Shown here: one piece after another, positions 2,298 to 15,937 of the stretch
Numbering within the stretch: position 1 is the stretch's first letter
How the letters are laid out: each line of letters starts with the position of its first letter
Virus record (IMG/VR): IMGVR_UViG_2737471841_000003
Length of the DNA stretch: 15,937 nucleotides
Reading direction: 5' to 3' (one strand)
DNA from: a virus
Taxonomy: Duplodnaviria > Heunggongvirae > Uroviricota > Caudoviricetes
The notes under the pieces: generated by a model
The model's database searches: none
What the model saw: only the letters and a program-made list of their open reading frames with translations
Told to the model about the DNA's origin: nothing
Translations under genes and position numbers: made by a program

Positions 2298-2313
2298 ATG
2301 CCTGTATGTTTGC

Positions 2314-2568: not shown

Positions 2569-2900
2569 TAGCAGTCTTTTTGATGCCGTGATGGTGGTAT
2601 ATAAGCCTGTGGCATCAATTAATAGGTTTTTCTGATTGTCTTGCAGATCAGCTTTATCAGGTATCTGTTTATGTTCCGGTACGATGAGACCGTGCGGGCA
2701 TCTCTTAGTTTTGGCTTATAACTTATGTGCCTGGTAAGAGAGCAGAACCACCATCAATCGCCTGTTTATCGCCTTGGTTAGGGCAGGGCCGCATCAAGCC
2801 CAGTGATCTGTAAGGTACTCCACACCATATACGCTTCTTTTCTCGTAGAGGTCGCGTTAACCTCTGGGGTGTGTTTCCATTCGACAGGATAGCATGATCA

Positions 2901-3728: not shown

Positions 3729-3743
3729 TTTCCCCTTGCCTTG

Positions 3744-3905: not shown

Positions 3906-3940
3906 AAAATAAGCTCCTTGAAGAATACAGGTAAAAGGAT

Positions 3941-3978
3941 AATAAAAAAGGGAGGGAGGTTGTTAGCCTCTCCTCCCT
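3941..3978 (-). terminator. Intrinsic terminator or stabilising hairpin just downstream of the major capsid gene
   Basis: On the - strand: GGGAGGAGAGG, loop CTAACAA, CCTCCCTCCC, then CTTTTTTATT. It begins about 20 nt after the capsid stop at 3996. Phages commonly place a strong hairpin after the capsid gene. Confidence 0.5.
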
Positions 3979-3995
3979 TGTATTTAGCTATCAGA

Positions 3996-5024
3996 TTATG
4001 CCGCTTCGGTTAATTTCAGTTTAAAAATGAAATCTGGCCTACTATTGAGGTACGCGGTATGGGATTCACAGAAGATTTTACGCTGGGTGTTAGTCTGTTC
4101 TAACCAGTAAATTTCCCGTGCAGGTGCACCGCTCATTGCATAGCGTAAATTACGGGTTGCAGGTCCCACAATTTCACTCATGCAAGGCAGGAAAGTATTC
4201 TTGCGAACTGCCGGAACAGCGTAAGCATGACCTTCTTTCATGAATGAATCGTCACAGCTGATAATAGTGATAGCAATGCCATCTACCTGGAATACAGAAT
4301 AACCCGGCAGATGTTCACCATCAAATACCATGCTGGATTTAACAGTACCATTACCGAACATAATAGCGCGGCGAATGTCTTTATCATCGTAACGCAGGCG
4401 ATCATAAGTTGAGCTATCTACGAAGAGATAAACCCCACCAAATGAGTGAACTAAACCGCCCATTTGTTTTTTGACCAGTTTTACAATTCGTTCAAGCTCA
4501 CGGATGAGATCGCCACCCAGGTTTAACTCATCTTCGGACTGTTTAAACTTGCCACCCAGTTCCTCGACAATATCGATATCCCCACCTTTGAAATGAATCA
4601 CGTTATCAAAGAGAGCGCGCTGCATAGCTTTTTCTCTTGCAATTTCAAGGCGTTGTTTCATGCTCAACAGGTGTTCACCCGTCACATCGTCCAAGGTTTT
4701 CTCACGATTGGTGCCTGGTTTGCGGTGACCCTGGAAAGCGCTGGCGCTGATCTGAGATTCCAGTGCATAAGCAGGAACACGCAGCATTAAAGTTTGTGCT
4801 GTACCTGTTACGATGCTGCCATAATCACCCAGATCATAATCGCTTACAACTGGGGCAGCTGATTGGGTTGCTGCAATAACGTTATCGAACACGAAGGAGG
4901 TTGTACTGGTGTAAATTTTTTCATTAAACAAGCCCAGAGAAGTGATCAGCTGGTTTTCTAATGTTGGTTCTAGCATCACACATTCTGTGACATCTTTATA
5001 ATCGAATAATTGAAAGTCTGCCAT
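3996..5024 (-). CDS. Major capsid protein, lambda gpE family (342 aa)
   Basis: Size matches lambda E (341 aa). Recalled local similarity to lambda gpE: KNTFLP vs KNFLP, SGAPAREIYW vs GDPAREFTM, and a similar central hydrophobic block. ATG at 5024. It sits directly downstream of a small decoration-like gene, as in lambda D-E. Confidence 0.7.
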   Translation of the reverse strand: MADFQLFDYKDVTECVMLEPTLENQLITSLGLFNEKIYTSTTSFVFDNVIAATQSAAPVVSDYDLGDYGSIVTGTAQTLMLRVPAYALESQISASAFQGHRKPGTNREKTLDDVTGEHLLSMKQRLEIAREKAMQRALFDNVIHFKGGDIDIVEELGGKFKQSEDELNLGGDLIRELERIVKLVKKQMGGLVHSFGGVYLFVDSSTYDRLRYDDKDIRRAIMFGNGTVKSSMVFDGEHLPGYSVFQVDGIAITIISCDDSFMKEGHAYAVPAVRKNTFLPCMSEIVGPATRNLRYAMSGAPAREIYWLEQTNTQRKIFCESHTAYLNSRPDFIFKLKLTEAA

Positions 5025-5036
5025 TCCATCCCCCTA

Positions 5037-5360
5037 TTAAAGTGCTAATTTGACATGTTCGTTTAACAGGTGGGGAATAGCTTCCGGAGGATTAATTCCG
5101 AAAGAATTTAATACCACACCGATCCCGTGAACAATAACTAATTTGTCGCCTTTTTTAGCTGGTTCCAATACCACAAATAAAGCAGGCATCTCTTCTTCGT
5201 CAGCGTCGAATTTTGCCCCTTCTGCGGTAATAACATCGCCAGGGAATAAATCCTCAGTTAATGCCGTTTTCAGTTCCAGAGCTTTTTGTTCAAACTCGGG
5301 GTCCATGGAATAGGCGACCACATCTGCACGTGTTTTACGCGGCTTATCAGAAAATAACAT
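5037..5360 (-). CDS. Putative head decoration protein (107 aa), lambda gpD-like by position and size
   Basis: ATG at 5360 with GAGGT SD. Its stop is 12 nt upstream of the capsid gene start. 107 aa vs 110 aa for lambda D. Sequence similarity to gpD was not confidently recognised; the call is positional. Confidence 0.45.
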   Translation of the reverse strand: MLFSDKPRKTRADVVAYSMDPEFEQKALELKTALTEDLFPGDVITAEGAKFDADEEEMPALFVVLEPAKKGDKLVIVHGIGVVLNSFGINPPEAIPHLLNEHVKLAL

Positions 5361-5429
5361 CGTGTTACCTCATCTCTATCGCATTTATCAGATTTAATGT
5401 ATTAGAATCTCACCTCTGATACATTAATA

Positions 5430-5460
5430 AAGGCCACCCCTTCAGGTTGGGTAGCCTTGA
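5430..5460 (-). terminator. Terminator-like hairpin upstream of the head genes (- strand)
   Basis: On the - strand: GGCTACCC, loop AACCTGAA, GGGTGGCC (8-bp stem with one G.U), then TTTATTAATG. It lies about 70 nt upstream of the start at 5360. Confidence 0.3.
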
Positions 5461-5913
5461 TAATGGACCAGGTGCATAATCCAGAGCACGAAGATTATTC
5501 TCTGGTCATTCGTCTGTCGAGGTGATTTAAATGTGAAGTGAATCAGGCATTACTGCCTCAATCCATATAATAAAACCTCCCCCTAGCCCAGAGAGAGGCC
5601 TTATTATTTACTAGGATATATGAATGACTGATTTCAGTCTGGCAGATTCGCTAATAGCTCACCGCCTGGCACTTATTATCGCCTTCATTAGATCACCACA
5701 AATAATGTCGGCTATGGGAGAATGTAACCCGCTCCCAGTTGTTCACAGTACAACCAGACTTTTTACTGGAGAAAGTAATATCCACTCGTATAAATATTAC
5801 CTTCTTTAAAGGCCCTCGCTACGGTGGAAAGAAGAGGTAGCACAGAACAACCAGCAAAGACCTTTAAAGAAGTACGCCCAGCATCAAGGGGAAAATGATG
5901 AAAAAGCTCTGAG

Positions 5914-5942
5914 CTTCCGGGCGTTGACAAGTACAGGAGAAC
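5914..5942 (+). promoter_or_regulatory. Near-consensus sigma70 promoter (TTGACA, 17-bp spacer, TATTAT; TG immediately upstream of the -10)
   Basis: TTGACA at 5914-5919, TATTAT at 5937-5942, TG at 5935-5936. Confidence 0.45.
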
Positions 5943-6018
5943 ACTGTATTATCCAATAATCGGTGAGATGTAGGTGAGATAACTCGAAAGGTGTAACCAT
6001 GAAAGTATCTACATCATA

Positions 6019-6038
6019 GTATTATGATAACATAATAC
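6019..6038. promoter_or_regulatory. Inverted repeat (GTATTATG ATAA CATAATAC), candidate operator or RNA hairpin in the leader
   Basis: 8-bp arms separated by 4 bp, downstream of the 5914 promoter and followed 16 nt later by a T7 run (6055-6061). Confidence 0.3.
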
Positions 6039-6095
6039 TTGCCGTTTGTCAATCCTTTTTTCAAAGAAATTTAAAAAATTTTTCTCTCCGCCTCT

Positions 6096-6142
6096 TTTCT
6101 CGATCAAACAATTGAAAAAACTATTGACTGAGGCGTTAGAAT
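6096..6142 (+). promoter_or_regulatory. Promoter for the homing-endonuclease-like gene: 13-bp upstream box TTTCTCGATCAAA, then -35 TTGAAA and -10 TAGAAT (19-bp spacer)
   Basis: The box at 6096-6108 is identical to 14751-14763, which sits in the same position relative to the consensus promoter at 14768. -35 at 6112-6117, -10 at 6137-6142. The spacer is longer than optimal. Confidence 0.35.
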
Positions 6143-6182
6143 GTGATACGGTTCACCACAAATGGTAAGTGGAGGGTGCGAT

Positions 6183-7013
6183 ATGAAAGAGAGAAAACAG
6201 GCTTTAGCTAAAACAACAGAGCAGTTCATCGCTGAGGCAAGGAAAGTGCATGGTGATAAGTACGATTATTCGAAAGTTGAATACGTGAATATGCGCACTG
6301 AGGTTTGTATCATTTGCCCAATACATGGGGAGTTCACACAAAGACCAGAGAACCATCTTCGCGGTAACAGAGGAAAGGGGTGTGGTTGCCCTATTTGTAA
6401 ACCTTGGAGAAAACGCCTGACACGAGAAGAGTTCGAAAGGAGGGTAAAAGAGGTACACGGTGATAACCTGGATGTTTCACAGTTCGATTATAAAAACGTT
6501 CACACAGAGGGTATTGTTAAGTGCAACAGGTGCGGCATGACGTTCTCGATACAGGCACAAGCGATTATCCTTAGAAATTCTGATGGTAGTCTTCTAGGCG
6601 GTTGCCCTGTGTGTGACCATCTACACAGAGACGCGGAATATGTTTATTTGGCGCTGGATGATCCACACTTTCCGACGAGATTTAAGATCGGGGTAACAAG
6701 CAACCCACAGGACAGATTGATAACTTTGAAGTGTAGAACACCTTTCAGGGTGTTTATGAAATGTTGTTTCAAAGTAGGAAAAGTGAAGGCGCGGAGGCTG
6801 GAGTACTTCCTGCACAACTTCTACAACTTCTGCAATTGTGGTTATGAATCAAGAAAGGACTTTCAGGGTGCAACAGAGTGGTTTTATTACCTGCAAAGTA
6901 AAGTAGGGGTGAAGAGGGTGCTCAAGATGTTAGTAAAACTGGTAAACGCCAGGAGCTACAACCGCCACTACATAAAGCATAAAAAGCCAACGTTTAAACG
7001 CACTTTGTTTTAA
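6183..7013 (+). CDS. Homing-endonuclease-like protein: two N-terminal Zn-ribbon repeats plus a C-terminal T5orf172 (GIY-YIG-like) domain
   Basis: Start moved to ATG 6183 (GGAGGG SD at 6171-6176); the track start at 6162 lacks an SD. Two tandem repeats of HGDKYDYSKVEY...C.ICP.HGEF.Q.P..HL.G.GC..C, then YVYLALDDPHFPTRFKIGVTSNPQDRL...EYFLH...ATEWFYY, which matches the T5orf172 pattern as I remember it. Confidence 0.65.
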   Translation: MKERKQALAKTTEQFIAEARKVHGDKYDYSKVEYVNMRTEVCIICPIHGEFTQRPENHLRGNRGKGCGCPICKPWRKRLTREEFERRVKEVHGDNLDVSQFDYKNVHTEGIVKCNRCGMTFSIQAQAIILRNSDGSLLGGCPVCDHLHRDAEYVYLALDDPHFPTRFKIGVTSNPQDRLITLKCRTPFRVFMKCCFKVGKVKARRLEYFLHNFYNFCNCGYESRKDFQGATEWFYYLQSKVGVKRVLKMLVKLVNARSYNRHYIKHKKPTFKRTLF

Positions 7014-7064
7014 TGGTGGGCCAGGGATGGTTATTGACTCTCAATCATTATTTTAAAAAAGATG

Positions 7065-7093
7065 TTGACTACCACACGGTAAAAGTGTATAAA
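7065..7093 (+). promoter_or_regulatory. Near-consensus sigma70 promoter (TTGACT, 17-bp spacer, TATAAA)
   Basis: TTGACT at 7065-7070, TATAAA at 7088-7093, about 40 nt upstream of the 7131 ORF. Confidence 0.5.
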
Positions 7094-7130
7094 GGGCCTA
7101 AAGAAAGAGAAGTGGCAAAGGAGGTAAAAA

Positions 7131-7250
7131 ATGTTCAGGCTGATGGTGAATGTCCTGGCGATAATCTTCGGGTTAGTGCTCTTTCTGATGGCCTGGAGCG
7201 TTATCTTTGAAGTAGTGGATATAGTGATGGCGATGTTAATGATTAAATAA
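7131..7250 (+). CDS. 39-aa hydrophobic single-TM peptide (MFRLMVNVLAIIFGLVLFLMAWSVIFEVVDIVMAMLMIK); not in the ORF track
   Basis: ATG at 7131 preceded by AGGAGG (7119-7124) at 6-nt spacing and by the 7065 promoter. TAA at 7248-7250. The overlapping track ORF 7013..7210 in another frame has no SD and covers the promoter. Confidence 0.4.
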   Translation: MFRLMVNVLAIIFGLVLFLMAWSVIFEVVDIVMAMLMIK

Positions 7251-7266
7251 CGCAGGAGGCAAGATC

Positions 7267-7329
7267 ATGAAACATTGGGAAGTGATTGCACTGTTCATCA
7301 TAATGTTTGTGATGTGCATCGAGTTTTAA
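7267..7329 (+). CDS. 20-aa hydrophobic peptide (MKHWEVIALFIIMFVMCIEF); not in the ORF track
   Basis: ATG at 7267 preceded by AGGAGG (7254-7259) at 7-nt spacing. TAA at 7327-7329. It is very short, so this is tentative. Confidence 0.3.
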   Translation: MKHWEVIALFIIMFVMCIEF

Positions 7330-7364
7330 CATTAGTCGATCAATATATTGAAGAGGTGACTACT

Positions 7365-7916
7365 ATGAAAACTATCAAAACTATCGCCGCTGTGGTCCTG
7401 GCAATGTTTGTGGGCAATGCTAATGCCGCCCTGGTGATCACAGACCAAGACATTGAAGACCACATGGAGACAATGGAGGTTTACTACCAGGCTGAGGATA
7501 TTGATTGTGAGATCTGGAGCAAGATGTTCACGAAAGGGGTAATTGAAGGTAACGACAAGTTCAGGCACGGTATCCGTGTTCACAAAGACCTCACAATTGT
7601 TGCCATGAAAGCTAAATCGGAGTTCTACAACAAATACGCAGGGGAGGTTGTCAAATCTGGCGCAAGTAAAGGATACAGCAAGGAGAGAGTAGATCAGATT
7701 AGAGATGTTTACATCGGTGCTTACATCGGTGCGGCCGAGATGAAATCTCGCGTAAACAGCAAGTTCGGCAAAGCCGCTGATCTTAACTCTGTAGCTAAAA
7801 AGAGAGCAGAAGCCGATCATTGGTTCAATTTCTGTGTGAAAGTGAAAGAAGAATATCCGGTCGTATTGTTCAACGAGTGGTTAGCTATAGCACAGCTGGC
7901 AGAAGATGATTTTTAA
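7365..7916 (+). CDS. Secreted (periplasmic) protein with Sec signal peptide, 183 aa
   Basis: Start moved to ATG 7365 (GAGGTG SD at 7353-7358). N-terminus MKTIKTIAAVVLAMFVGNANA/AL has n-, h- and c-regions with a predicted cleavage after ANA. There is no Cys at +1, so it is not a lipoprotein. The track start at 7275 lacks an SD. Confidence 0.6.
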   Translation: MKTIKTIAAVVLAMFVGNANAALVITDQDIEDHMETMEVYYQAEDIDCEIWSKMFTKGVIEGNDKFRHGIRVHKDLTIVAMKAKSEFYNKYAGEVVKSGASKGYSKERVDQIRDVYIGAYIGAAEMKSRVNSKFGKAADLNSVAKKRAEADHWFNFCVKVKEEYPVVLFNEWLAIAQLAEDDF

Positions 7917-7946
7917 CCGGGGACGATCATCGACTCAAAAAAGTGA

Positions 7947-7975
7947 TTGACAACGGAGGTGAGATCCGGTATAGT
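7947..7975 (+). promoter_or_regulatory. Near-consensus sigma70 promoter (TTGACA, 17-bp spacer, TATAGT)
   Basis: TTGACA at 7947-7952, TATAGT at 7970-7975, upstream of the 8011 gene. Confidence 0.5.
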
Positions 7976-8010
7976 TCACCACATAGAGAAGAGATACGGA
8001 GGGCAGCAAG

Positions 8011-8391
8011 ATGAAAACTTTCAATTGGGTTAAACCACAGATGTTACGTCGCGCCAATAACCACGGTGAGGGTGTACGCCACCACAACGACGCACCTGCA
8101 CCGGACATGAAGAAGGCACGCAAAGTGATCAATCTTCGTCAGGACGCGGCTATCGCTCGCAACCTGAAAGCAGAAGCGAAAAACCGTAACCCGTTGGAGG
8201 CAATTCTTGTTGCCCTGGTCAATGACCATGCAGCTCATTTCCGTCATTTCAATGGCATCAACCAGTACCAGATGGCAGAAGCCAACCGTAAAGAAGAAGA
8301 GCGGATCCTGGCTGGACTGGTACACGTTGAGATTGAACCTGAACCGGAACCGGAGGAAATTCATTGGGACCTCTGGAAAATGGCAGCTTAG
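8011..8391 (+). CDS. Hypothetical early protein (126 aa)
   Basis: ATG at 8011 with GGAGGG SD at 7998-8003. Contains a PEPEPE stretch. Function unknown. Confidence 0.6.
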   Translation: MKTFNWVKPQMLRRANNHGEGVRHHNDAPAPDMKKARKVINLRQDAAIARNLKAEAKNRNPLEAILVALVNDHAAHFRHFNGINQYQMAEANRKEEERILAGLVHVEIEPEPEPEEIHWDLWKMAA

Positions 8392-8452
8392 TCCACAGAG
8401 TGGATTTCACAGAGTGAAACCTGATAACAGGCAGCTTGAGGAGGCTTGAATC

Positions 8453-8917
8453 ATGAAAATTTTCAGTATTGAACATTACGAAGACAAAATTGAAGAGCTG
8501 GAAAGACTGGCTGAGATTGCAGATTATCGCGCGGGGTACGCCGCTGGACTTGCGGAAGTTCGGGAAAAAATACTTAAAAAATTCCACAGCTTGTACTATG
8601 TCCTGGCGGTTGCTGAGCAAGAACAAGATGAGGAGCTGTACGAGTACACGTCGTGCCGTATCCTGGAAATGGCGGGTGTGTACGGCATAATCAAGGCGGG
8701 AGAGGTGATCTCAGACGAAGAGATTGCGAAGAGACTTCGTAAACGCATCGAAAACGCATACTTTGAAGCGATCTACTATACGAAAAAAAGCACGGAGCTG
8801 TATAAACGCATAACTGCGGCGACGAAAGTTGTCACTCAGCTACAGAAAGTAAAAATCTTCAAACTGAAAGCGGCGTTGGCTATCGGTAAAATGTTTTTCC
8901 CACATCGTTTCAATTGA
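8453..8917 (+). CDS. Hypothetical early protein (154 aa)
   Basis: ATG at 8453 with GAGGAGG SD. Function unknown. Confidence 0.65.
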   Translation: MKIFSIEHYEDKIEELERLAEIADYRAGYAAGLAEVREKILKKFHSLYYVLAVAEQEQDEELYEYTSCRILEMAGVYGIIKAGEVISDEEIAKRLRKRIENAYFEAIYYTKKSTELYKRITAATKVVTQLQKVKIFKLKAALAIGKMFFPHRFN

Positions 8918-8945
8918 TTAAATAATAAACAGAGGAGACTGTAAA

Positions 8946-9314
8946 ATGAGTTACGAAAACTGCTGTTTCTGTGTGGAAGATGTGCCGCCAGTCATTCTGG
9001 AGCGTCACGGTGTGAAAACGTATCTGCCGATGATTCTGATGTTCGAGCATTTCCTCGATCATGGTGATGACGGTTTTTATGTCGGTTATAGTGAGGACGA
9101 TTTCCCTCCTGACTTGCTGAAAGAGTTGGAAGAAAAAGGCATCATTGAAGTATTTGATCAAACTGACGTGGATAATGGTGTGTGGGTAAGGGTTAAAAAA
9201 GAGATTCACATTGAACGTCTGCAACTTGCGGCAGAAGTCCAGGGCCTTGAGATTCTCGACATGAGCGACTACCTCAAACAACTGGACGAAGCATACAAGG
9301 CGCACGATTTATAG
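8946..9314 (+). CDS. Hypothetical acidic early protein (122 aa)
   Basis: ATG at 8946 with AGAGGAG SD. Tightly spaced after the preceding gene. D/E-rich. Confidence 0.65.
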   Translation: MSYENCCFCVEDVPPVILERHGVKTYLPMILMFEHFLDHGDDGFYVGYSEDDFPPDLLKELEEKGIIEVFDQTDVDNGVWVRVKKEIHIERLQLAAEVQGLEILDMSDYLKQLDEAYKAHDL

Positions 9315-9327
9315 GGGAGACACACAG

Positions 9328-9642
9328 ATGAATAAAGACGTGATTGAACTGCTGGAACAACTGAACAAGGCCGCTGAGTATATCCTGGCCGATGTGAAGG
9401 TCCTGGATGGTCACTTGTTGCTGGCGAGCAAGTCAGCCACACAGGAAGGAAGGGACAGGGCTGTCGAGCTATACGTTCAGGATGCTGCACATCTTATAAA
9501 CAAATGGTTGCCTGATGTGGGTGTCGAGGTGACAAACTACGCAGAAGCAACGGCGGCGCATATGGTGCTGATGCATCTGGCAATTGATAGTTACCGTAGT
9601 AACATGTTAGCAATGCTGGACTTCATGAAGGCTAAAAATTAA
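9328..9642 (+). CDS. Hypothetical early protein (104 aa)
   Basis: ATG at 9328 with GGGGAG SD, 14 nt after the preceding stop. Confidence 0.6.
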   Translation: MNKDVIELLEQLNKAAEYILADVKVLDGHLLLASKSATQEGRDRAVELYVQDAAHLINKWLPDVGVEVTNYAEATAAHMVLMHLAIDSYRSNMLAMLDFMKAKN

Positions 9643-9704
9643 TCGTACTCGATCAATAGTTCAATTTTACTTATGAATTGTGGAGAGCATAAGAGGTTCC
9701 AACA

Positions 9705-10226
9705 ATGAAAACTGAACTCAAACATGAAATTCTAAACGCTTTTAACAACCGTATCGAGGCCATAGTGGATGGTCAACCTGGCGGGATGTTCTTTGTGGAG
9801 GAAGCCATAGAGCTGGCTAAAGCGGAGGAAGCAGTAGAGAGAATACTCAACATCCCACACAGTGATCAATGTCTGGTAGATAGGTATCTATACGGCTTCA
9901 TGCGACTGGTCCGGCATTATTGCGAGGTGCCTGTGGACCATCATTTTATCAGTATGATCTACGCCGATGCTTCTGACTTCTTCTACAGGCTAGATCACAG
10001 AATAGACGAAATGATTGTTGTGTTACTGGCGGGATCTGATGACGAAAGGTTGTTAGACGTAGAACCTGATGAACTGGTGAAAAAACTTATTGAGCGTGTT
10101 TATCGGGAAATGGAGGCAGACGTAGAGGCAGCGGGTGAAGATGGAAGAATGCGGCAGAAGCTGGAGGCCGCGTATAAGGCCAGGCCGAAGGATGATGATG
10201 ACGATACGGAAGGAATCCCATTCTGA
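9705..10226 (+). CDS. Acidic early protein (173 aa) with an SSB-like C-terminal tail (...KDDDDDTEGIPF)
   Basis: ATG at 9705 with AAGAGG SD. Strongly acidic overall. The C-terminal codons were checked directly: GAC GAT ACG GAA GGA ATC CCA TTC TGA. Confidence 0.65.
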   Translation: MKTELKHEILNAFNNRIEAIVDGQPGGMFFVEEAIELAKAEEAVERILNIPHSDQCLVDRYLYGFMRLVRHYCEVPVDHHFISMIYADASDFFYRLDHRIDEMIVVLLAGSDDERLLDVEPDELVKKLIERVYREMEADVEAAGEDGRMRQKLEAAYKARPKDDDDDTEGIPF

Positions 10227-10277
10227 GCTATTGGGGCCGTCACTGGCCCCGCTTACCAACTAATCGGAGAGCATAAG

Positions 10278-10553
10278 ATGAAACTCAAACTTATCGAAAG
10301 TCAGCTGAACATGTTCTTTAAGATGGCAAGTGTGATCATTGTGGACGGTGAACAATTCGCGGGTCCAGTGCCACACAGTAGCATCGTTTTAGATATCAAC
10401 AGAGAGGCCCTTAAATGCGTTGTGGAGGCCGTATTTAATCAGGATGTAAAAGTGTATAGGCTTATGGAGTTTGAGCTACAGGAGCGCGATTTACGCATCA
10501 TAGAGCGACATTTGAAGGCTGAGCAAGCCGCAGAAGAGTTGAACCTGGATTAA
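10278..10553 (+). CDS. Hypothetical early protein (91 aa)
   Basis: ATG at 10278 with GGAGAG SD. Confidence 0.6.
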   Translation: MKLKLIESQLNMFFKMASVIIVDGEQFAGPVPHSSIVLDINREALKCVVEAVFNQDVKVYRLMEFELQERDLRIIERHLKAEQAAEELNLD

Positions 10554-10662
10554 GGGGGTGTATACCCCGAACATTGTGAGAGGTGTGAGATGGCTAAACA
10601 AATACTTTCAATTGTTCCACTGTGGAAACTGAATCATAAATTCGTAAAAAAATGGTAAACCA

Positions 10663-11013
10663 GTGCTGTTTACATACCTTGATGCGCTGGTCTTCGGTTA
10701 CATAGCACGAGCTAACTATGGGGGCAAGTGGTTCAACTTCGTAATGAAGAATGCAATCTACGACCTCTATACAAGCGAGAAGGAGATAACGCACAGCGTT
10801 GAAAAACTGGTTATGTTAAGACTTATCAAAATAATGCCGGGTGAAAGTTTGCCTAACTGCCACATGGTGGCGCAAGTCACTCATAAGGAATTGGAAGACA
10901 CGATCAATAGGTATATCGAGCGTGAAAGAATGTCTTGCGCGATGATCGACCTTGATGAAGAGAGGAGGAAACAATTCCAGGGTAATGATGAATGGGAAGA
11001 TTGTCCTTTTTAA
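10663..11013 (+). CDS. Hypothetical protein (116 aa from a GTG start; start uncertain), C-terminus ...NDEWEDCPF
   Basis: The ORF is open from 10648. The first start codon is GTG at 10663 with no clear SD; an alternative ATG at 10744 has a weak SD. It is preceded by a 22-codon uORF (10590-10658, SD GAGAGGTG) that ends in an A7 run. Confidence 0.45.
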   Translation: MLFTYLDALVFGYIARANYGGKWFNFVMKNAIYDLYTSEKEITHSVEKLVMLRLIKIMPGESLPNCHMVAQVTHKELEDTINRYIERERMSCAMIDLDEERRKQFQGNDEWEDCPF

Positions 11014-11030
11014 TGTAGGGGGGTGGCAAA

Positions 11031-12008
11031 ATGACTACAGAAGTGATGATCCAGATTTTCGAATCTGATTTAAATAATGATGGTAACTTAGTCCCGGTTG
11101 TTAACGCCCGTGAGTTTTACGAAGCGCTTGGGATGCGAAAAGATTATGGAAATTGGATCAGGTGGCATCTTCGGAAATTTGAAAAAAATCGGGACTTTAT
11201 TACTTTTATCGATAAGTCGGGAGAACATCCGCGTCATAACTATTTTATCACTTTGGACACTGCAAAGCACATATGCAGGGTGAGCCAACGCCAGGAAGGT
11301 GAGCAGTTGCTACAGTATTTAATTAAAGTTGAAAAAAGATACCGTTTAGTACTGGACCCACAACCACAGATTCCTGTTTACACACAGTCACAGATTCCTG
11401 TTTACACACAGTCACAGATTCCTGTTTACACACAGACGGAACCTGAACCGTTGCCAGGAACACCGGAACATTTTGCCCGTGCATTTACGGAGGCTTACCA
11501 ACAGATATACGGGGCAACAGATCAGCAGCCAGTCATTGAGCACAATACGGAACCTGTGGTTCCTTGTTGGGGAGCTGGGTCTAATCAGAGCCTCGAGGTC
11601 CAGGATGTGCAGGAAGTACGACCGCCAGCACCTGTGCTGGGGTATTACAATCCTTGCCCGGACAACAAAATCAACATGAAAGGCTTAAAAGAATACCTGA
11701 GCAATGAACGCCTGATCAAGTACCTCATTAAAAAATTCAACATTGAAAATGAGATTTATGATTATGGTTACATAAATGTGAAAGGGAAAGCTGAGTCGGA
11801 GATTGTGTACGATAAACGTAAAACGCTGGCGATCTTACATGCCGCTTACGCTTTGAGTACTAGAGTAAACGCCACACAGAGAGAGTTTATGGGGATAGTA
11901 TTCACGATGTACAGGGTGTTAAGAGACACACATTATGATAAGGACATGTACGATACAGCTTACACTCTTCTTGAAGAGGATATAAACAAATTGTATAAAA
12001 TTGATTGA
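11031..12008 (+). CDS. Antirepressor-like protein with N-terminal AntA-type domain (325 aa)
   Basis: ATG at 11031 with a G-rich SD. The N-terminus (VVNAREFYEALGMRKDYGNWIRWHLRKFEKNRDFITF...YFITLDTAKHI) matches the AntA/AntB antirepressor N-terminal pattern as I remember it. Contains a triplicated QIPVYTQS repeat. Confidence 0.65.
   Translation: MTTEVMIQIFESDLNNDGNLVPVVNAREFYEALGMRKDYGNWIRWHLRKFEKNRDFITFIDKSGEHPRHNYFITLDTAKHICRVSQRQEGEQLLQYLIKVEKRYRLVLDPQPQIPVYTQSQIPVYTQSQIPVYTQTEPEPLPGTPEHFARAFTEAYQQIYGATDQQPVIEHNTEPVVPCWGAGSNQSLEVQDVQEVRPPAPVLGYYNPCPDNKINMKGLKEYLSNERLIKYLIKKFNIENEIYDYGYINVKGKAESEIVYDKRKTLAILHAAYALSTRVNATQREFMGIVFTMYRVLRDTHYDKDMYDTAYTLLEEDINKLYKID
11367..11438 (+). repeat. 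Three tandem 24-bp direct repeats (CAGATTCCTGTTTACACACAGTCA) inside the antirepressor-like gene
   Basis: Units at 11367-11390, 11391-11414 and 11415-11438; the third differs in its last bases. In frame, encoding QIPVYTQS x3. Confidence 0.9.
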
Positions 12009-12086
12009 GCATCTATACTCGATCACAACTCAACAATAAAGACGGAGAGTCGAGAGCATGACTCTCCTCAACCCCGGAGGCCCAAC

Positions 12087-12362
12087 ATGTATTACTACGA
12101 TTGCAAAGACCCGATTCTGGCTGAACGTAACCGCCTGGCTAATGAGATCGCCCAACAGGCAAAAGAGAAAAAAGCCCAACAGCGTATGGAGCTTGGAAAA
12201 GAGATTTACAGACTCCACACAGACGGCTACACAATGGAATGTATAGCCAAAAAGCTGGGAATGTCTGAACCAACAGCCTACAGACTGCAACGGGCATATC
12301 TGAAAGCTAACCCGCACCTCAAAGTGTTCTCGGGGCGTGTTGCGGCACGGGGTCGTAGTTAA
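12087..12362 (+). CDS. Small HTH DNA-binding protein (91 aa), resolvase/sigma-region-4-like HTH
   Basis: ATG at 12087 with GGAGG SD (12076-12080). The segment GYTMECIAKKLGMSEPTAYRLQRAY is HTH-like. Its stop lies 10 nt before the first operator-like palindrome. Confidence 0.6.
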   Translation: MYYYDCKDPILAERNRLANEIAQQAKEKKAQQRMELGKEIYRLHTDGYTMECIAKKLGMSEPTAYRLQRAYLKANPHLKVFSGRVAARGRS

Positions 12363-12371
12363 CACACACTA

Positions 12372-12408
12372 GGGACAAAATGTCCTACCTACCCGGGACA
12401 AAATGTCC
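12372..12408. promoter_or_regulatory. Two copies of a 14-bp palindromic operator-like site, GGGACAAAATGTCC, 23 bp centre to centre
   Basis: Exact copies at 12372-12385 and 12395-12408. Each is a dyad (GGACA-N3-TGTCC). Confidence 0.5.
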
Positions 12409-12409
12409 A

Positions 12410-12419
12410 CCCCCCCCCC
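12410..12419. repeat. Homopolymeric C10 tract
   Basis: Ten consecutive C at 12410-12419, directly after the second operator copy. Confidence 0.9.
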
Positions 12420-12449
12420 GGCAATATGTGATTCCCGGAAGACACATGT

Positions 12450-12486
12450 TTGTACAAATTGTAGTCACTGATTGTACAGATTGTAG
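12450..12486. repeat. Two direct repeats TTGTACA(A/G)ATTGTAG spaced 22 bp
   Basis: 12450-12464 and 12472-12486. Each has a TGTACA palindromic core. Confidence 0.6.
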
Positions 12487-12490
12487 CACT

Positions 12491-12573
12491 ATACCGGTTT
12501 TCCGATAGAGCTATACCGGATTTCCGGTAGAGGTATACCGCTTTTCCGGTATAGGTATACCGGATTTCCGGTA
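12491..12573. repeat. Iteron array: four 17-bp dyad-symmetric sites (ATACCGG-N-TTTCCGGTA) at exactly 22-bp spacing; putative replication origin or partition/regulator binding array
   Basis: Sites at 12491-12507, 12513-12529, 12535-12551 and 12557-12573. Arms TACCGGA and TCCGGTA are reverse complements. Followed by an AT-rich stretch (12574-12622), the same layout as the lambda origin (four dyad iterons plus an AT-rich region). Confidence 0.6.
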
Positions 12574-12622
12574 ACTATTAGATCAATCTATTACATCAAG
12601 AAAAAAGATCACTTATTATATT

Positions 12623-12645
12623 AAGGGCCTTGCCCTTTTTGTTGT
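12623..12645 (+). terminator. Terminator-like hairpin (AAGGGC, loop CTT, GCCCTT, then TTTGTTG)
   Basis: 6-bp GC-rich stem with a 3-nt loop, then a T-run, at the end of the AT-rich region. It would terminate read-through from the 12087 gene across the iterons. Confidence 0.35.
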
Positions 12646-13845
12646 GGGATTGATTGGTGGGATTGATCTTACTGATAGTATAATACTCCACCAATCAACC
12701 CTAAGTTGTGGGAGAGTACGGAGCAGACTGCGACTACAGAGCAGGCTGAGAAGTACTCAATGGGTGTAAGGGATTAAGGGACCCACACACATTTCCACAC
12801 ACAGAGTAAAGCCAGAGGCTTTATGAAGTGTAAGAGTAATGCCTAAAGAGTCGAAGCACACTTTAGGCTATATTGTGTGGGAGGTATCTGTACATAGTAC
12901 AGAGTACTCCCCATTATGTGGGGGCAATCCTGCCCGTAAGGGCAGCTCATGTGATTCGCAGCCGTAAGCTGAACTGCGACGAAGAAGGCTGCAAAGGTTC
13001 TCGGCCCGGTTACAATTACGCAACAATTTTATAATCTATCGTTAACCTATACCACTATCACAATTTCTATAGTTGAGTCCTACTATCCCCTACACCATAA
13101 AATCAATTTTAAGCCACACTCAGCCTACGGCTTCACGGTAAAACGTGTTTTAACCCACATAATGGCCCCTGTAGTGAGCTAAATGGTATACACCGCTATA
13201 ATTGGGTTACTTATGAGATAACCTCGTTAGAATCGATTCTAGAGCGTTTTAGAGCTTGAAATCCATCCTGCAAACTGCAAGATGATGATTCTATCGGGGA
13301 AGAATTTTTTTCCTTCCCGTAAGTCGTACCGTAGAGCAGATTTGCTTTACGAGCTTTCTCACACCTCAGGCCTCTGGCCTTCATGGAGTATCGGAGATAC
13401 GACTCACCGCATATACTCTGTTTTCAGTGCTACCCTGATCGCATCCGACCCTTTTCAGAGGCACTTTTAACCGCATTCTGGCACGCTACAACAGCAAGAA
13501 ATAGGCTGATTCTACTGATTTTACCTTACAATACAGGTACATAGCAGAAGGGCAGGAATATACTGTGAGAATGGTTGCTAGACCGGGCCTTCTTCTCTCT
13601 GTGTGTGCATTCTGAAACCGTTATGTAGTCGAGTATATAACGACTGGTCAGACCAGTGCAGGGCTGAAAATGATGATCGGTCACCACAATTATGGGCAAA
13701 TTACTGTACATTCATACAGTAGTTATACATAAAGAATATGCATCGATTGCTCTTTAGGCACAGATGTTATAATGTAACAATTAATTTAGTTTACCTCGGT
13801 AATCACTGTGTGGACATGTCACGCAACTAAACTAAATCCGAAGAG

Positions 13846-13854
13846 TTATCCACA
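13846..13854 (+). promoter_or_regulatory. Consensus DnaA box TTATCCACA
   Basis: Exact 9-mer match to the R-type DnaA box, single copy. Nearby are an 8-bp palindrome GACATGTC (13812-13819) and a 10-bp inverted repeat, ATTTAGTTTA (13783-13792) with TAAACTAAAT (13827-13836). Confidence 0.3.
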
Positions 13855-14687
13855 GATTGGGGGTAAATCATCAACATAGTCTGTAGCCTCTGACAGAGAG
13901 CAAAAAGAAAGGCCTTTTATGTGATCAATATCACGTTTCTGGGGTAGTTCTGGAGGCTTAGGTGCGGGGAAGTAGTGCGTACTGACACCAGAGGCCGCAT
14001 AAAACAAGGGGATTTAACATAATGGATCTTGTATACACCACACCTCACCACGTTGAAATCTGATCTTACTTTGAGGCTATCTGCCAACAGAATCCGCGTA
14101 CATGCACCATAACCTGTATGTGGGATGCAATAATAAAGGCCCTGGCGGCCCACAGGCCGCATGAATACTGGGCTTGTCATAGATATGGGCCTGTATCGCT
14201 ATGTAGATGCGGGATGACCTGTAAGGGTGTGGCAGGTGGCAGGGGCTGGAGGGCACGGTACAGCACAGCTAATGGGTGAGGCCCCAGATATTTGAGAATC
14301 ACTCTCACCTGAGAATAATTATCAGTAACTCCTGCCTAGTACCACCCCTGTAGGTAAGGTTGATCATTGCCCACATTGCTGGTATACTTTATCTGTGGGA
14401 AAGTAACGCCGTTACTTCCGCGAACGCTGTGCGTGATGTGTGGGAGAATGTGCCTGCGTAATAAAAAAATTGAAAATTACTCATCTGTCAACATTTCAAT
14501 GACGTATGTCAATCATTTATGCTATGTGTTTACTTTATAATCAATCACTTACGAATTTAATGAAATAAATGCATTTAAATAGGGTGAAACTCAAATCTAA
14601 CCCCTGAAACTGTGTTGATAAAGGGGCGTGAAGCCCGGCGTAGGTAACTCGTTACCCGCCAGTGTTATTGATAATTCTCATTTACGT

Positions 14688-14716
14688 TTGACAATGCAAT
14701 CCCAATGGTGTATAAT
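14688..14716 (+). promoter_or_regulatory. Perfect consensus sigma70 promoter (TTGACA, 17-bp spacer, TATAAT)
   Basis: TTGACA at 14688-14693 and TATAAT at 14711-14716, in an AT-rich upstream context. Confidence 0.6.
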
Positions 14717-14750
14717 AGACTATAAGGGGTAAGATAGAATCTTTACTCAA

Positions 14751-14796
14751 TTTCTCGATCAAAGGTATTGACAAATGAGAGTAAAGGTGTTATACT
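14751..14796 (+). promoter_or_regulatory. Second tandem near-consensus promoter (13-bp box TTTCTCGATCAAA, then TTGACA, 17-bp spacer, TATACT)
   Basis: Box at 14751-14763, -35 at 14768-14773, -10 at 14791-14796. It lies 80 bp downstream of the 14688 promoter. Confidence 0.6.
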
Positions 14797-14885
14797 TATC
14801 TATAACAGCAAAACTCTACTTTAGAGCCGCTCCATGAGGAGCAAAGCTCCGAAGTGTGATCATAGTCGGTAAATCCCTTACTTAC

Positions 14886-14918
14886 CGGGGGCACTTCTCC
14901 AGCCCCCTCTCTTTTTAA
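14886..14918 (+). terminator. Intrinsic terminator in the leader (GGGGGC, 9-nt loop, GCCCCC, then TCTCTTTTTAA)
   Basis: Stem 14887-14892 pairs with 14902-14907, followed by a T-run at 14908-14916. It is about 110 nt downstream of the predicted start site and about 50 nt upstream of the 14969 start. Confidence 0.5.
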
Positions 14919-14968
14919 CGGTATGGTAAGAAAACATTCTTTATAAGTGATAAAAGAGGTAGTTAATC

Positions 14969-15208
14969 ATGGCTAAACCTTATTCAAATAGCTTTAACAT
15001 TGAAACAATGAGAGCTGATCAGATTGTAGACATGGTGAGGAACCAGGAACTTTCAGAGGAGACGCTCTACATGTTCATCTATCGCACGAAGAACCGTTAC
15101 CCGGAGGTAGATAAGGCATGGAAGGAGATCAAGCGCCTCAAAAAAGAGTTCAAGAAAGAAGCTGAATTGTACTGGCGCAAACGGTTTTTCTATAACTACA
15201 AAGGCTAA
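14969..15208 (+). CDS. Hypothetical basic protein (79 aa)
   Basis: ATG at 14969 with AGAGGT SD. K/R-rich C-terminal half. Confidence 0.6.
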   Translation: MAKPYSNSFNIETMRADQIVDMVRNQELSEETLYMFIYRTKNRYPEVDKAWKEIKRLKKEFKKEAELYWRKRFFYNYKG

Positions 15209-15240
15209 TCGGTAGAGATAACAAAGATAAAGGTGGAAAC

Positions 15241-15756
15241 ATGAGAGCAGTTTTTGATCAGCTGCCGTGGTGGCTTGATTTTCTCGAAGAACTGGACGGA
15301 AAGAAATTTAAACTGACAAAAGGTGAAGCGAGAGCATTTGCTTGTATTCTTACGTATGCCGCGACATGTGGTAAGATTTTCCCGTCACTCCACACAATAG
15401 CCCTTCATATGGGTTTACGGAGTGAAAAACGAGCGCCGACACAGGCGCATAAAGCGATCAAAGGCCTGGAGGAAAAAGGCCTTATACGTGTTAGCCGTCG
15501 CGCTGGGTGTGGAAACCATTATGAACTAGTTTACACAGCAGATCAACTCTTTGAGATGACAAAGCAACAGAATCCAGACTTGTTCAAAGGCTATGAAGAC
15601 ACGTTCGGAGAAGAGGATAGGGAGAGAGAACAGGCAGGGGATAAACCGAAGAAACATGATACAAAACAGGGGGTTACGTGTCAACATGACAACGGTCAAC
15701 CGGATGATATTCACATAGAAGCGTGTGATCTGGATGCTACTGACATACCATTTTAA
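15241..15756 (+). CDS. HTH_36-type winged-helix DNA-binding protein (phage replication/regulatory type), 171 aa, with SSB-like C-terminus (...DLDATDIPF)
   Basis: ATG at 15241 with AAGGTGG SD. The segment LTKGEARAFACILTYAATCGKIFPSLHTIALHMGLRSEKRAPTQAHKAIKGLEEKGLIRVSRR matches the HTH_36 pattern seen in the N-terminal domains of phage replication proteins. The terminal codons GAC ATA CCA TTT TAA were checked. Confidence 0.7.
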   Translation: MRAVFDQLPWWLDFLEELDGKKFKLTKGEARAFACILTYAATCGKIFPSLHTIALHMGLRSEKRAPTQAHKAIKGLEEKGLIRVSRRAGCGNHYELVYTADQLFEMTKQQNPDLFKGYEDTFGEEDREREQAGDKPKKHDTKQGVTCQHDNGQPDDIHIEACDLDATDIPF

Positions 15757-15824
15757 CATAAATCACAGCTCCGCATGAAGCTACGCTGAATAAATCACAC
15801 TGTATTAACAATGAGGTAACAAAA

Positions 15825-15937
15825 ATGAGTTTAGTTGAAAGATTGAAAAAAATCCTCGCCACAGAAGAGGTAGAGGAAGAGGAAGAAGTAGAGAAGGCGG
15901 CGGATCCTAAGCCTGAGAAGGCTGTGAATACCCAGAG
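15825..15937 (+). CDS. 5' end of a downstream gene (partial; MSLVERLKKILATEEVEEEEEVEKAADPKPEKAVNTQ...)
   Basis: ATG at 15825 with GAGGT SD (15813-15817). The ORF is open to the window end. Confidence 0.5.
   Translation, partial: MSLVERLKKILATEEVEEEEEVEKAADPKPEKAVNTQ

What the first reader, a model, noticed from the sequence alone, without database searches (positions are those of the whole stretch)
12410..12419. C10 homopolymer between the operator pair and the iterons
Homopolymeric tracts of this length are prone to slipped-strand mispairing. A length change here would alter spacing between the GGGACAAAATGTCC operators and the downstream sites, a possible phase-variable switch. It may also mark a sequencing-error-prone position.
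Basis: inference. Interest (0 to 1): 0.35.

Follow-up and report, generated by a model that had tools for sequence, protein, structure and literature searches.

The report
Poly-C spacer beside a replication origin
The run of ten Cs is real, but it looks like a strain-specific spacer between protein-binding repeats beside a lambda-like replication origin on a small circular phage-like element of E. coli; nothing found here shows that it works as an on/off switch.

Summary
C10 sits exactly at 12410-12419. It is the only homopolymer longer than 7 in the window, and a second assembler recovered it identically. The window is a whole 15,937-bp circular contig from an E. coli draft genome, a phage-like element with no DNA match in INPHARED, and no protein match there for its capsid-like and Rep-like proteins. 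The tract lies in a 280-bp non-coding cassette after a small HTH gene. The cassette holds two exact GGGACAAAATGTCC palindromes 23 bp apart, then C10, two TTGTACARATTGTAG repeats, four TATACCGGWTTTCCGGTA iterons at 22-bp spacing, an A/T-rich stretch resembling that of lambda ori, and a terminator. C10 is the spacer of the second 23-bp unit; a degenerate third unit starts 23 bp further on. No plausible sigma-70 promoter spans the tract, no conserved ORF contains it, and it is unpaired in the predicted RNA fold. Ten complete and four partial cassettes from related E. coli, Shigella and gut-metagenome elements carry other site sets and no G/C run longer than 5. The closest one shares the iterons but lacks both the palindrome pair and the tract. 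Verdict: a lineage-specific, probably slippage-prone spacer in the accessory part of a lambda-type origin. A phase-variable switch is not supported, and read-level length heterogeneity was not tested.

The parts
12087..12362 (+). 91-aa HTH_23 protein gene directly upstream of the cassette
   Evidence: Pfam HTH_23 E=2.9e-6. The protein is KHI93883.1/WP_047671632.1 of E. coli. It does not co-vary with the downstream sites: the identical protein P0006 sits next to two different cassettes (L058 and L059).
12372..12385 (.). Palindromic site 1, GGGACAAAATGTCC (unit 1 of a 23-bp repeat; spacer TACCTACCC)
   Evidence: (family D2). The only exact copies in the window are this one and site 2.
12395..12408 (.). 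Palindromic site 2, GGGACAAAATGTCC (unit 2)
   Evidence: It starts 23 bp after site 1.
12410..12419 (+). C10 homopolymer: the C-rich spacer of unit 2 (ACCCCCCCC + CC)
   Evidence: It is identical in the Logan assembly L057, unpaired in the RNA MFE and centroid folds, and absent from all relatives.
12418..12431 (.). Degenerate third unit CCGGCAATATGTGA (8 of 14 matches to the site), starting exactly 23 bp after site 2
   Evidence: Read from the sequence. My binomial estimate for 8 or more of 14 matches at a fixed offset is about 0.01. This is weak evidence.
12450..12486 (+). Two 15-bp direct repeats TTGTACARATTGTAG, 22 bp apart
   Evidence: A diverged homologue is present in L059.
12490..12573 (+). 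Four 18-bp palindromic iterons TATACCGSWTTTCCGRTA at 22-bp spacing
   Evidence: D1; 6 matches against 0.14 expected. Five copies occur in L059.
12574..12620 (+). A/T-rich stretch (70-80% A+T) with two GATC sites; resembles the A-rich region to the right of the lambda ori iterons (CTATTACA ... AAGAAAAAAGA ... TTATT)
12623..12637 (+). Intrinsic-terminator-like hairpin AAGGGCCTTGCCCTT followed by TTTGTTG; right end of the variable cassette
   Evidence: hairpin predicted.
12644..12701 (+). Conserved promoter-like element where similarity among relatives resumes (GTGGGATTGAT x2, TATAAT at 12679-12684, inverted copy at 12688-12701)
   Evidence: D16, I10; L055 98% identical from 12644.
15241..15756 (+). 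171-aa winged-helix protein with an acidic tail ending ...DIPF; candidate initiator for the cassette
   Evidence: Weak PHROG hits to replication initiators, including O-like (E 3e-5 to 2e-3). hhalign against initiators that carry GGGACAAAATGTCC arrays: 79% probability, E 1.7e-5, residues 21-98. The AF2 model shows a winged helix at pLDDT 75-88 and a disordered tail; the best PDB folds are MarR/MecI-type winged helices, none at E<=0.001. The allele type co-varies with the cassette type in relatives.

Best explanation
C10 is a real, lineage-specific homopolymeric spacer. It fills the gap after the second of two exact 14-bp palindromic binding sites that repeat every 23 bp, and a degenerate third unit follows in register. 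This short array forms the left, accessory part of a lambda-type replication-origin cassette: four palindromic iterons at 22-bp spacing, then an A/T-rich unwinding region, then a terminator. The cassette lies in the 3' untranslated part of an HTH-gene operon on a 15.9-kb circular phage-like element of E. coli. The tract most likely does nothing beyond setting distance and helical register between bound proteins. It probably arose when a C-rich spacer (unit 1 has TACCTACCC) expanded or became uniform. It should be the most slippage-prone base run on the element, so rare +/-1 variants that turn the palindrome pair about 34 degrees relative to the origin iterons are expected. There is no sign that such changes are used as a programmed switch. 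Shown: sequence, register, uniqueness, absence from relatives, absence of a promoter or ORF. Inferred: origin function, spacer-only role, mode of origin of the tract.
For: The tract is present and is an outlier and is identical in a second assembly. The 23-bp unit structure appears as repeat family D2, 83% identical including the spacers. All repeat families are confined to 12372-12573 and spaced 22-23 bp. The layout matches lambda ori, which has four 18-bp palindromic iterons 20-24 bp apart followed by an A-rich region sharing CTATTACA / AAGAAAAAAGA / TTATT. Relatives carry, at the same place, cassettes with lambda-like ATCCCTC...GGGA palindromes and/or GGTTATACAGTGT iterons, and the type of Rep-like gene changes with the cassette type. 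The exact 14-mer forms arrays at 22-24-bp spacing inside replication-initiator genes (Phage_rep_org_N+DnaB_2, HTH_36+DnaD_N, RP-C) in many unrelated replicons. No promoter spans the tract and it is unpaired in the RNA fold. Ten complete and four partial related cassettes have no G/C run longer than 5. L059 shares the iterons and the diverged TTGTACA repeats but has neither the palindrome pair nor the tract.
Against: Origin function is inferred from architecture and co-variation only; nothing was tested functionally. Only one lineage carries this cassette type, so conservation or variation of the tract length cannot be judged. The two assemblies may derive from the same reads. The degenerate third unit matches only 8 of 14 positions (p about 0.01 at a fixed offset). 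A run this far from expectation, in a host where G/C tracts are rare, could reflect selection for something unrecognised. The protein that binds the palindromes is not identified. The adjacent HTH protein does not co-vary with the sites, and no window protein is detectably similar by sequence to proteins of the IMG/VR phages that carry the same site.
Confidence: 0.6

Rival explanations
1. Phase-variable switch. Slippage in C10 reversibly changes the distance between the palindrome pair and downstream sites. This would turn a promoter, or origin firing, on and off in subpopulations.
For: The tract length (10) is in the range that is hypermutable in known contingency loci. It lies directly next to exact protein-binding palindromes and in register with 22-23-bp repeats. 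Poly-C tracts between an activator site and the -10 box do act this way in Bordetella fim promoters (PMC1891110).
Against: No sigma-70-like promoter spans or adjoins the tract on either strand (best 7-8 of 12). There is no conserved ORF, and the next downstream feature is a terminator at 12623. Two assemblies give the same length. All 14 related cassettes lack the tract. E. coli is mismatch-repair proficient and is not known to use G/C-tract contingency loci widely (my knowledge); G/C tracts are rare and short in Escherichia genomes (PMC8928963).
Confidence: 0.1
2. The tract exists but its reported length is wrong (a homopolymer miscall or consensus error). Any argument from exact spacing would then be unsafe.
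For: Homopolymers of 8 or more are the classic error site for several platforms. The sequencing platform is unknown. The two assemblies may use the same reads.
Against: Two different assemblers give C10. The length puts the degenerate third unit exactly 23 bp after unit 2, the same as the unit 1 to unit 2 distance. The called genes of the window match the gene set and product lengths of related elements, which argues against a homopolymer-error-prone data set.
Confidence: 0.12
3. The G10/C10 block is an active structural element of the origin. It could be a rigid, hard-to-melt clamp limiting the spread of unwinding or protein oligomerisation. Or it could be a site where a transcript forms a persistent RNA-DNA hybrid that primes replication, as G-runs do at ColE1 ori and mitochondrial CSBII (my knowledge).
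For: The tract lies about 70 bp from the iterons of a lambda-type origin and is transcribed by read-through from the upstream operon before the terminator at 12623. Lambda ori itself needs transcription nearby (my knowledge). The run is far longer than composition predicts.
Against: Rightward transcription puts C10, not G10, in the RNA, which is the opposite of the ColE1/CSBII arrangement. No leftward promoter was found. L059 has the same iterons and A/T-rich region without any such tract, so this origin type does not require it.
Confidence: 0.08
4. The cassette is a packaging (cos/pac) or partition site rather than an origin, and C10 belongs to that site.
For: The element has capsid-, tape-measure- and Dit-like genes but no recognisable terminase or portal. 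It may therefore depend on a helper phage and need a recognition site. A small HTH protein is encoded immediately upstream.
Against: The HTH protein does not co-vary with the sites. The iteron plus A/T-rich layout and sequence resemble lambda ori, not cos. The cassette type tracks the Rep-like allele. There is no ParA or terminase partner.
Confidence: 0.08

Closest known systems
Bacteriophage lambda ori (O-protein iterons plus A/T-rich region)
   Same: Four 18-bp palindromic repeats about two helical turns apart, followed directly by an A-rich region. The window even shares CTATTACA, AAGAAAAAAGA and TTATT in the same order. Relatives of the element carry palindromes with lambda's own half-site ATCCCTC. 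The Rep-like proteins give weak 'replication initiation O-like' PHROG hits.
   Different: Lambda ori lies inside gene O, whereas this cassette is intergenic and about 2.7 kb upstream of the Rep-like gene. The iteron sequence differs (TATACCGGWTTTCCGGTA). Lambda has no flanking palindrome pair or homopolymer tract. The Rep-like protein is only 171 aa and lacks the O C-terminal domain.
Bordetella fim2/fim3/fimX promoter 'C-stretch' (phase variation by poly-C length)
   Same: A poly-C run of similar length next to a protein-binding site, where length sets the distance to the next functional element (PMC1891110).
   Different: In Bordetella the tract lies inside a mapped promoter between the activator site and the -10 box, upstream of a gene, and varies in length among strains. 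Here no promoter or downstream gene is associated, no length variation is seen, and relatives lack the tract.
GGGACAAAATGTCC iteron arrays inside winged-helix initiator genes of gut phages and plasmids (IMG/VR, ENA, GTDB loci L001-L052, L072-L102)
   Same: The same exact 14-mer, repeated 2-7 times at 22-24-bp spacing. Some arrays have C- or G-rich spacers, such as CTACCCCC in L094 and GGGGGGAG in L082.
   Different: Those arrays lie within the coding sequence of the initiator (Phage_rep_org_N, HTH_36/DnaD_N, RP-C) in Clostridia, Bacilli, Bacteroidales, Planctomycetota and others. None is followed by a long homopolymer. No window protein is detectably similar by tblastn/phmmer; the only link is a profile-profile match of the winged-helix domain at 79% probability.
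G-run-dependent RNA-DNA hybrid priming (ColE1 ori, mitochondrial CSBII)
   Same: A G/C homopolymer close to an origin in a transcribed stretch.
   Different: The known cases need the G-run in the RNA. Here the known direction of transcription gives a C-run in the RNA, and a sister origin (L059) lacks the tract. This comparison rests on my knowledge, not on a test.

Membership tests
Simple-sequence contingency locus / phase-variable promoter | Homopolymeric G/C tract long enough to slip at high rate (about 8 or more) | tested here: met
   C10 at 12410-12419.
Simple-sequence contingency locus / phase-variable promoter | Tract lies in a promoter (between -35 and -10, or between an activator site and -10) or in the 5' part of an ORF | tested here: not met
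   The consensus scan finds no promoter at 12363-12589. An exhaustive hexamer scan gives at best 7-8 of 12 matches, none convincing. The only ORF over the tract (12380-12508, 42 aa) starts at the ATG inside the palindrome, was not called in the public annotation, and cannot be conserved because the cassette is absent from relatives.
Simple-sequence contingency locus / phase-variable promoter | Tract length differs among isolates or within populations | tested here: inconclusive
   Two assemblies both give C10. No other carrier of this cassette was found in IMG/VR, JGI/ENA metagenome contigs, GTDB representatives, PLSDB, INPHARED, complete E. coli genomes or the protein-indexed Logan/ENA contigs.
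Simple-sequence contingency locus / phase-variable promoter | A gene whose expression depends on the tract | tested here: not met
   Downstream on the + strand come repeats, a terminator (12623-12637) and then an independently promoted ORF-poor region. Upstream is the stop codon of the HTH gene.
Iteron-type (lambda-like) replication origin | Three or more direct repeats of a protein-binding site about two helical turns apart | tested here: met
   Four TATACCGSWTTTCCGRTA repeats at 22 bp, plus 2 (+1 degenerate) GGGACAAAATGTCC units at 23 bp and two TTGTACARATTGTAG repeats at 22 bp.
Iteron-type (lambda-like) replication origin | Adjacent A/T-rich unwinding region | tested here: met
   12574-12620 is 70-80% A+T with two GATC sites. 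It is similar in sequence to the lambda ori A-rich region.
Iteron-type (lambda-like) replication origin | A cognate initiator whose allele matches the iteron type | tested here: inconclusive
   Rep-like alleles fall into types that track the cassette type: 295-306 aa with GGTTATACAGTGT iterons, 382 aa and the partial L061 allele with CCTCTAGAGG arrays, 171 aa with the window cassette. However, the window type has only one cassette-linked example. The family assignment of the 171-aa protein is weak.
Iteron-type (lambda-like) replication origin | Supports initiator-dependent replication | not testable with these tools
   Needs a plasmid replication assay.
GGGACAAAATGTCC arrays of winged-helix phage/plasmid initiators | Two or more exact sites at 22-24-bp spacing | tested here: met
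   Sites at 12372 and 12395, 23 bp apart.
GGGACAAAATGTCC arrays of winged-helix phage/plasmid initiators | Array embedded in the initiator's own coding sequence | tested here: not met
   In the window the array is intergenic. In 15 of the 20 loci inspected, the sites lie inside a long ORF of the initiator kind. Ten of these ORFs were scanned against Pfam, and four gave replication-initiator or HTH_36-type domains above Pfam's cut-off.
GGGACAAAATGTCC arrays of winged-helix phage/plasmid initiators | Homologous initiator protein | tested here: inconclusive
   No tblastn or phmmer similarity. hhalign gives 79% probability, E 1.7e-5, over the winged-helix domain only.

The most novel reading that the evidence does not exclude
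The C tract is a slippage-driven rheostat of replication. Length changes re-phase an accessory protein bound at the GGGACAAAATGTCC pair relative to the lambda-type iterons. Subpopulations of this small, possibly helper-dependent element would then differ heritably and reversibly in origin firing or copy number. That would be a contingency locus acting on an origin rather than on a gene.
Probability: 0.04. Interest if true: 0.6.

Novelty: new member of a known kind. Interest (0 to 1): 0.2.

Why it matters
The tract itself matters little. It is a mutational hot spot and a position to treat with care in assemblies, and anyone dissecting this origin should keep its length fixed or vary it deliberately. 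If length variants did change replication, it would be, to my knowledge, an unusual case of simple-sequence phase variation acting on an origin. The surroundings are more valuable than the tract: an undescribed family of about 15-kb circular phage-like elements in E. coli and Shigella with swappable origin cassettes, and one iteron word shared by very different initiators across phyla.

Tried and rejected
1. DNA relatives among known phages, plasmids and complete E. coli genomes. Megablast and blastn of the window or the cassette gave nothing useful: one 100-nt antA match and one 50-nt chance match.
2. A conserved 23-mer from the promoter next to the cassette was scanned in IMG/VR, GTDB representative genomes and metagenome contigs. 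There were no hits, so tract length could not be compared there.
3. The operator-pair pattern was scanned in IMG/VR, metagenomes and genomes. It gave 83 loci, none related to the window and none with a homopolymer after the sites.
4. I tried to reach more carriers of the window-type cassette through the HTH and Rep-like proteins, using all 12 contig look-ups. The contigs with the window-type Rep allele (L069-L071, L103) stop short of the cassette.
5. HTH protein as the binder of the palindromes: rejected, because the identical protein flanks different cassettes.
6. A shared DNA-binding protein between the window and the IMG/VR phages with the same site: none found by tblastn or phmmer.
7. Promoter with the tract in its spacer: none.
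8. RNA structure involving the tract: it is unpaired.
9. Rfam and tRNA scans of the window were empty.
10. Literature search for the 14-mer and for the accession numbers gave no hits.
11. Fold search with the Rep-like model returned only generic winged-helix (MarR/MecI-like) matches, none at E<=0.001.

Full report
**Observation**

Window positions 12410-12419 read CCCCCCCCCC, preceded by A and followed by GG. This is the only homopolymer longer than 7 nt in the 15,937-bp window. All other G or C runs stop at 6, with none of 7, 8 or 9. With the window's composition (C = 20.6%), the i.i.d. expectation for a C run of 10 or more is 0.0017. In 3000 first-order Markov simulations, any G or C run of 10 or more appeared in 46, or 1.5%. 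In 1346 complete Escherichia genomes, C tracts of 6 or more average 6.22 +/- 0.57 nt, and A/T tracts outnumber G/C tracts 11.6 to 1 (PMC8928963). The tract is therefore real and unusual.

**Where the window comes from**

The 91-aa protein encoded just upstream is KHI93883.1/WP_047671632.1 of Escherichia coli. The window is the entire contig JUDJ01000049.1 of assembly GCA_000798295.1. A Logan assembly of run SRR2239585 (L057) is 100% identical over 10,957 nt and runs straight from window position 15937 into position 1. The molecule is therefore circular (or tandemly repeated) and about 15.9 kb long. That assembly also has C10.

The element encodes these recognisable genes:
- tape-measure-like protein (118-2256)
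- Dit-like protein (2901-3728, minus strand)
- capsid-E-like protein (3996-5024, minus strand)
- T5orf172-domain protein (6162-7013)
- AntA-like protein (11031-12008)
- HTH_23 protein (12087-12362)
- a 171-aa Rep-like protein (15241-15756), behind two near-consensus sigma-70 promoters (14688, 14768)

No terminase, portal or integrase is recognisable. The window has no DNA match in INPHARED, and its capsid-like and Rep-like proteins have no tblastn match there. It is also absent from 5,426 complete E. coli genomes.

**Anatomy around the tract**

Between the HTH gene's stop codon (12362) and a terminator-like hairpin (12623-12637) lies a 280-bp non-coding cassette. It contains, in order:
- GGGACAAAATGTCC at 12372 and again at 12395, exact copies 23 bp apart
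- C10 (12410-12419)
- two TTGTACARATTGTAG repeats, 22 bp apart (12450, 12472)
- four 18-bp palindromic repeats TATACCGSWTTTCCGRTA at 22-bp spacing (12490-12573)
- a 70-80% A+T stretch with two GATC sites (12574-12620)

The repeat finder aligns 12372-12394 (site plus TACCTACCC) with 12395-12417 (site plus ACCCCCCCC) as one 23-bp unit at 83% identity (family D2). The tract is thus the spacer of the second unit. Exactly 23 bp after site 2, CCGGCAATATGTGA matches the site at 8 of 14 positions; my estimate is p about 0.01 at a fixed offset. The present tract length therefore keeps a possible third, degenerate unit in register. All three repeat families occur nowhere else in the window.

**What the cassette is**

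Three lines of evidence point to a replication origin of the lambda type.

First, the right half copies the lambda ori layout. Lambda has four 18-bp palindromic iterons 20-24 bp apart, followed by an A-rich region. The window's A/T-rich stretch shares CTATTACA, AAGAAAAAAGA and TTATT with lambda's, in the same order.

Second, related elements carry different site sets at this same position. I recovered 14 loci from other E. coli and Shigella-associated assemblies and gut metagenomes. Their site sets include palindromes with lambda's own half-site (ATCCCTCYTAAGGGA), CCTCTAGAGG arrays, and GGTTATACAGTGT iterons. Similarity to the window stops at the 3' end of the HTH gene and resumes at 12644 (98% in L055), so the cassette is a swappable module. 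The Rep-like gene changes type together with the cassette:
- 295-306 aa with the GGTTATACAGTGT iterons
- 382 aa, and the partial L061 allele, with the CCTCTAGAGG arrays
- 171 aa in the window

The 382-aa allele and the window protein give weak 'replication initiation O-like' PHROG hits.

Third, the exact word GGGACAAAATGTCC, repeated 2-7 times at 22-24-bp spacing, occurs in 83 loci from IMG/VR, metagenomes and genomes of Clostridia, Bacilli, Bacteroidales, Ignavibacteria and Planctomycetota. In 15 of the 20 loci I inspected, the sites lie inside a long ORF of the initiator kind. Of ten such ORFs scanned against Pfam, four gave domains above the curated cut-off: Phage_rep_org_N (with a near-threshold DnaB_2) in one, and HTH_36 in three. 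DnaD_N and RP-C hits were sub-threshold, and five ORFs had no hit. This is how lambda ori lies inside gene O.

The window's 171-aa protein is predicted to be a winged helix (pLDDT 75-88 over residues 10-115) with a disordered acidic tail. Its profile aligns with the N-terminal winged helix of those initiators at 79% probability (E 1.7e-5). Pairwise searches find nothing, and the fold search returns only generic MarR/MecI-type winged helices. Which protein binds which repeat therefore remains open. The adjacent HTH protein is unlikely to bind the palindromes specifically, because the identical protein (P0006) sits next to two different cassettes (L058 and L059).

**Is the tract a switch?**

I tested the features that define simple-sequence phase variation.
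- Tract length is adequate.
- Location is not. The consensus scan finds no promoter between 12363 and 12589. An exhaustive hexamer scan on both strands gives at best 7-8 of 12 matches, none with the tract in a credible spacer.
- The only ORF over the tract (12380-12508, 42 aa) begins at the ATG that is part of the palindrome. It is not called in the public annotation.
- The next feature downstream is a terminator.
- In the predicted RNA fold of 12355-12650 the palindromes, repeats and iterons form hairpins (z = -4.7), but the C run is unpaired in both the MFE and centroid structures.
- Polymorphism: the two available assemblies agree on C10.
- None of the ten complete and four partial related cassettes has a G/C run longer than 5.
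- The closest relative, L059, shares the iterons, the A/T-rich region, the terminator and diverged TTGTACA repeats. It has only one degenerate site (ACATAATGTC) and no C tract. This origin type therefore works without the tract.

No other carrier of the window-type left half was found in any collection I could reach. Contigs with the window-type Rep allele end before the cassette.

**Most likely explanation**

The tract is a lineage-specific homopolymeric spacer in a short 23-bp repeat array. That array forms the accessory, left part of a lambda-type origin cassette. The two perfect 14-mers and their similar C-rich spacers (TACCTACCC and ACCCCCCCC) suggest a recent local duplication followed by the second spacer becoming uniform or expanding. 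Spacers rich in C or G also occur in some foreign arrays of the same word, such as CTACCCCC in L094 and GGGGGGAG in L082.

The tract's job is to set distance and helical register. It is expected to be the most slippage-prone site on the element, and a +/-1 change would rotate the palindrome pair by about 34 degrees relative to the downstream repeats. Nothing indicates that this is exploited. I put this explanation at about 0.6.

The rivals are:
- a true phase-variable switch, 0.10
- a wrong reported length, 0.12
- an active structural or R-loop role at the origin, 0.08; this is weakened because rightward transcription puts C rather than G in the RNA, and because L059 lacks the tract
- a packaging or partition site instead of an origin, 0.08

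**Comparison with known systems**

The cassette works like lambda ori and other iteron origins. Membership is supported for the repeats and the A/T-rich region. It is inconclusive for the initiator and untestable for function. The tract resembles the Bordetella fim 'C-stretch' only in being a poly-C next to a binding site (PMC1891110). It fails the promoter, downstream-gene and polymorphism criteria.

**Verdict**

Interest in the tract itself is low (0.2). The decisive missing piece is a read-level count of tract lengths, followed by a replication assay with C8-C12 variants.

Noticed in passing
whole window (1-15937); relatives L053-L071, L103: The window is a complete circular contig of about 15.9 kb from an E. 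coli draft genome. It belongs to a family of 14-16-kb elements seen in E. coli, Shigella sonnei and gut-metagenome assemblies. These carry capsid-E-like, tape-measure-like and Dit-like genes but no recognisable terminase, portal or integrase. The window has no DNA match in INPHARED, its capsid-like and Rep-like proteins have no tblastn match there, and it is absent from 5,426 complete E. coli genomes. It may be an undescribed satellite or mini phage-plasmid.
   Followed up: partly
window 12644-14960: About 2.3 kb with no convincing ORF lies behind a conserved promoter-like element (GTGGGATTGAT x2, TATAAT at 12679-12684). The first part is 98% identical in L055. Relatives differ by clean, hairpin-sized insertions and deletions between TGTGGG-type motifs, which suggests modular structured RNA. 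Rfam finds nothing, and the alignment is too conserved to show covariation.
   Followed up: partly
window 10194-10226, 10990-11013, 15730-15756; L061 1-380: Three proteins end in an acidic run followed by (I/C)PF...DDDDDTEGIPF...NDEWEDCPF and ...DLDATDIPF. This resembles the C-terminal tip of E. coli SSB (...DDDIPF, from my knowledge), and Rep alleles of relatives do the same (...DDNVPF). It may be mimicry of the SSB tail to recruit host replication proteins.
   Followed up: no
L001-L052, L072-L102: The exact word GGGACAAAATGTCC forms 2-7-copy arrays at 22-24-bp spacing in replicons with GC content from 27 to 62%, from Clostridia, Bacilli, Bacteroidales, Ignavibacteria and Planctomycetota. In most loci inspected the arrays lie inside long initiator-like ORFs of very different sequence (where Pfam hits exist: Phage_rep_org_N, HTH_36). 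Many phages carry two arrays about 780 bp apart. I found no mention of the word in the literature searched.
   Followed up: partly
window 11365-11435: A perfect 24-bp x 3 tandem repeat lies inside the AntA-like gene and encodes (QSQIPVYT)x3. The Logan contig of the same element breaks here.
   Followed up: no
window 14688-14716 and 14768-14796: Two near-perfect sigma-70 promoters (TTGACA-17-TATAAT, and TTGACA-17-TATACT with TG) sit upstream of the 79-aa and Rep-like genes. The second is flanked by a 15-nt inverted repeat (14734-14748 / 14779-14793), which is likely an operator.
   Followed up: no
window 13846-13854: The window's single consensus DnaA box, TTATCCACA, lies in the ORF-poor region, 1.3 kb from the iteron cassette.
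   Followed up: no
L059 2030-2075: After its own HTH stop codon, L059 keeps a 26-nt relic of the window-type gene end (GTGTTGCGGCACGGGGTCGTAGTTGA). This marks the 3' end of the HTH gene as the recombination joint where cassettes are exchanged.
   Followed up: partly
L061 (ENA ERZ27242512 contig k141_228590, 60,220 bp): The same 15-kb gene set occupies the last 11.5 kb of a 60-kb metagenome contig. That contig is about four unit lengths long, so it could be a concatemer of diverged copies or a larger genome. The rest of the contig could not be fetched.
   Followed up: no
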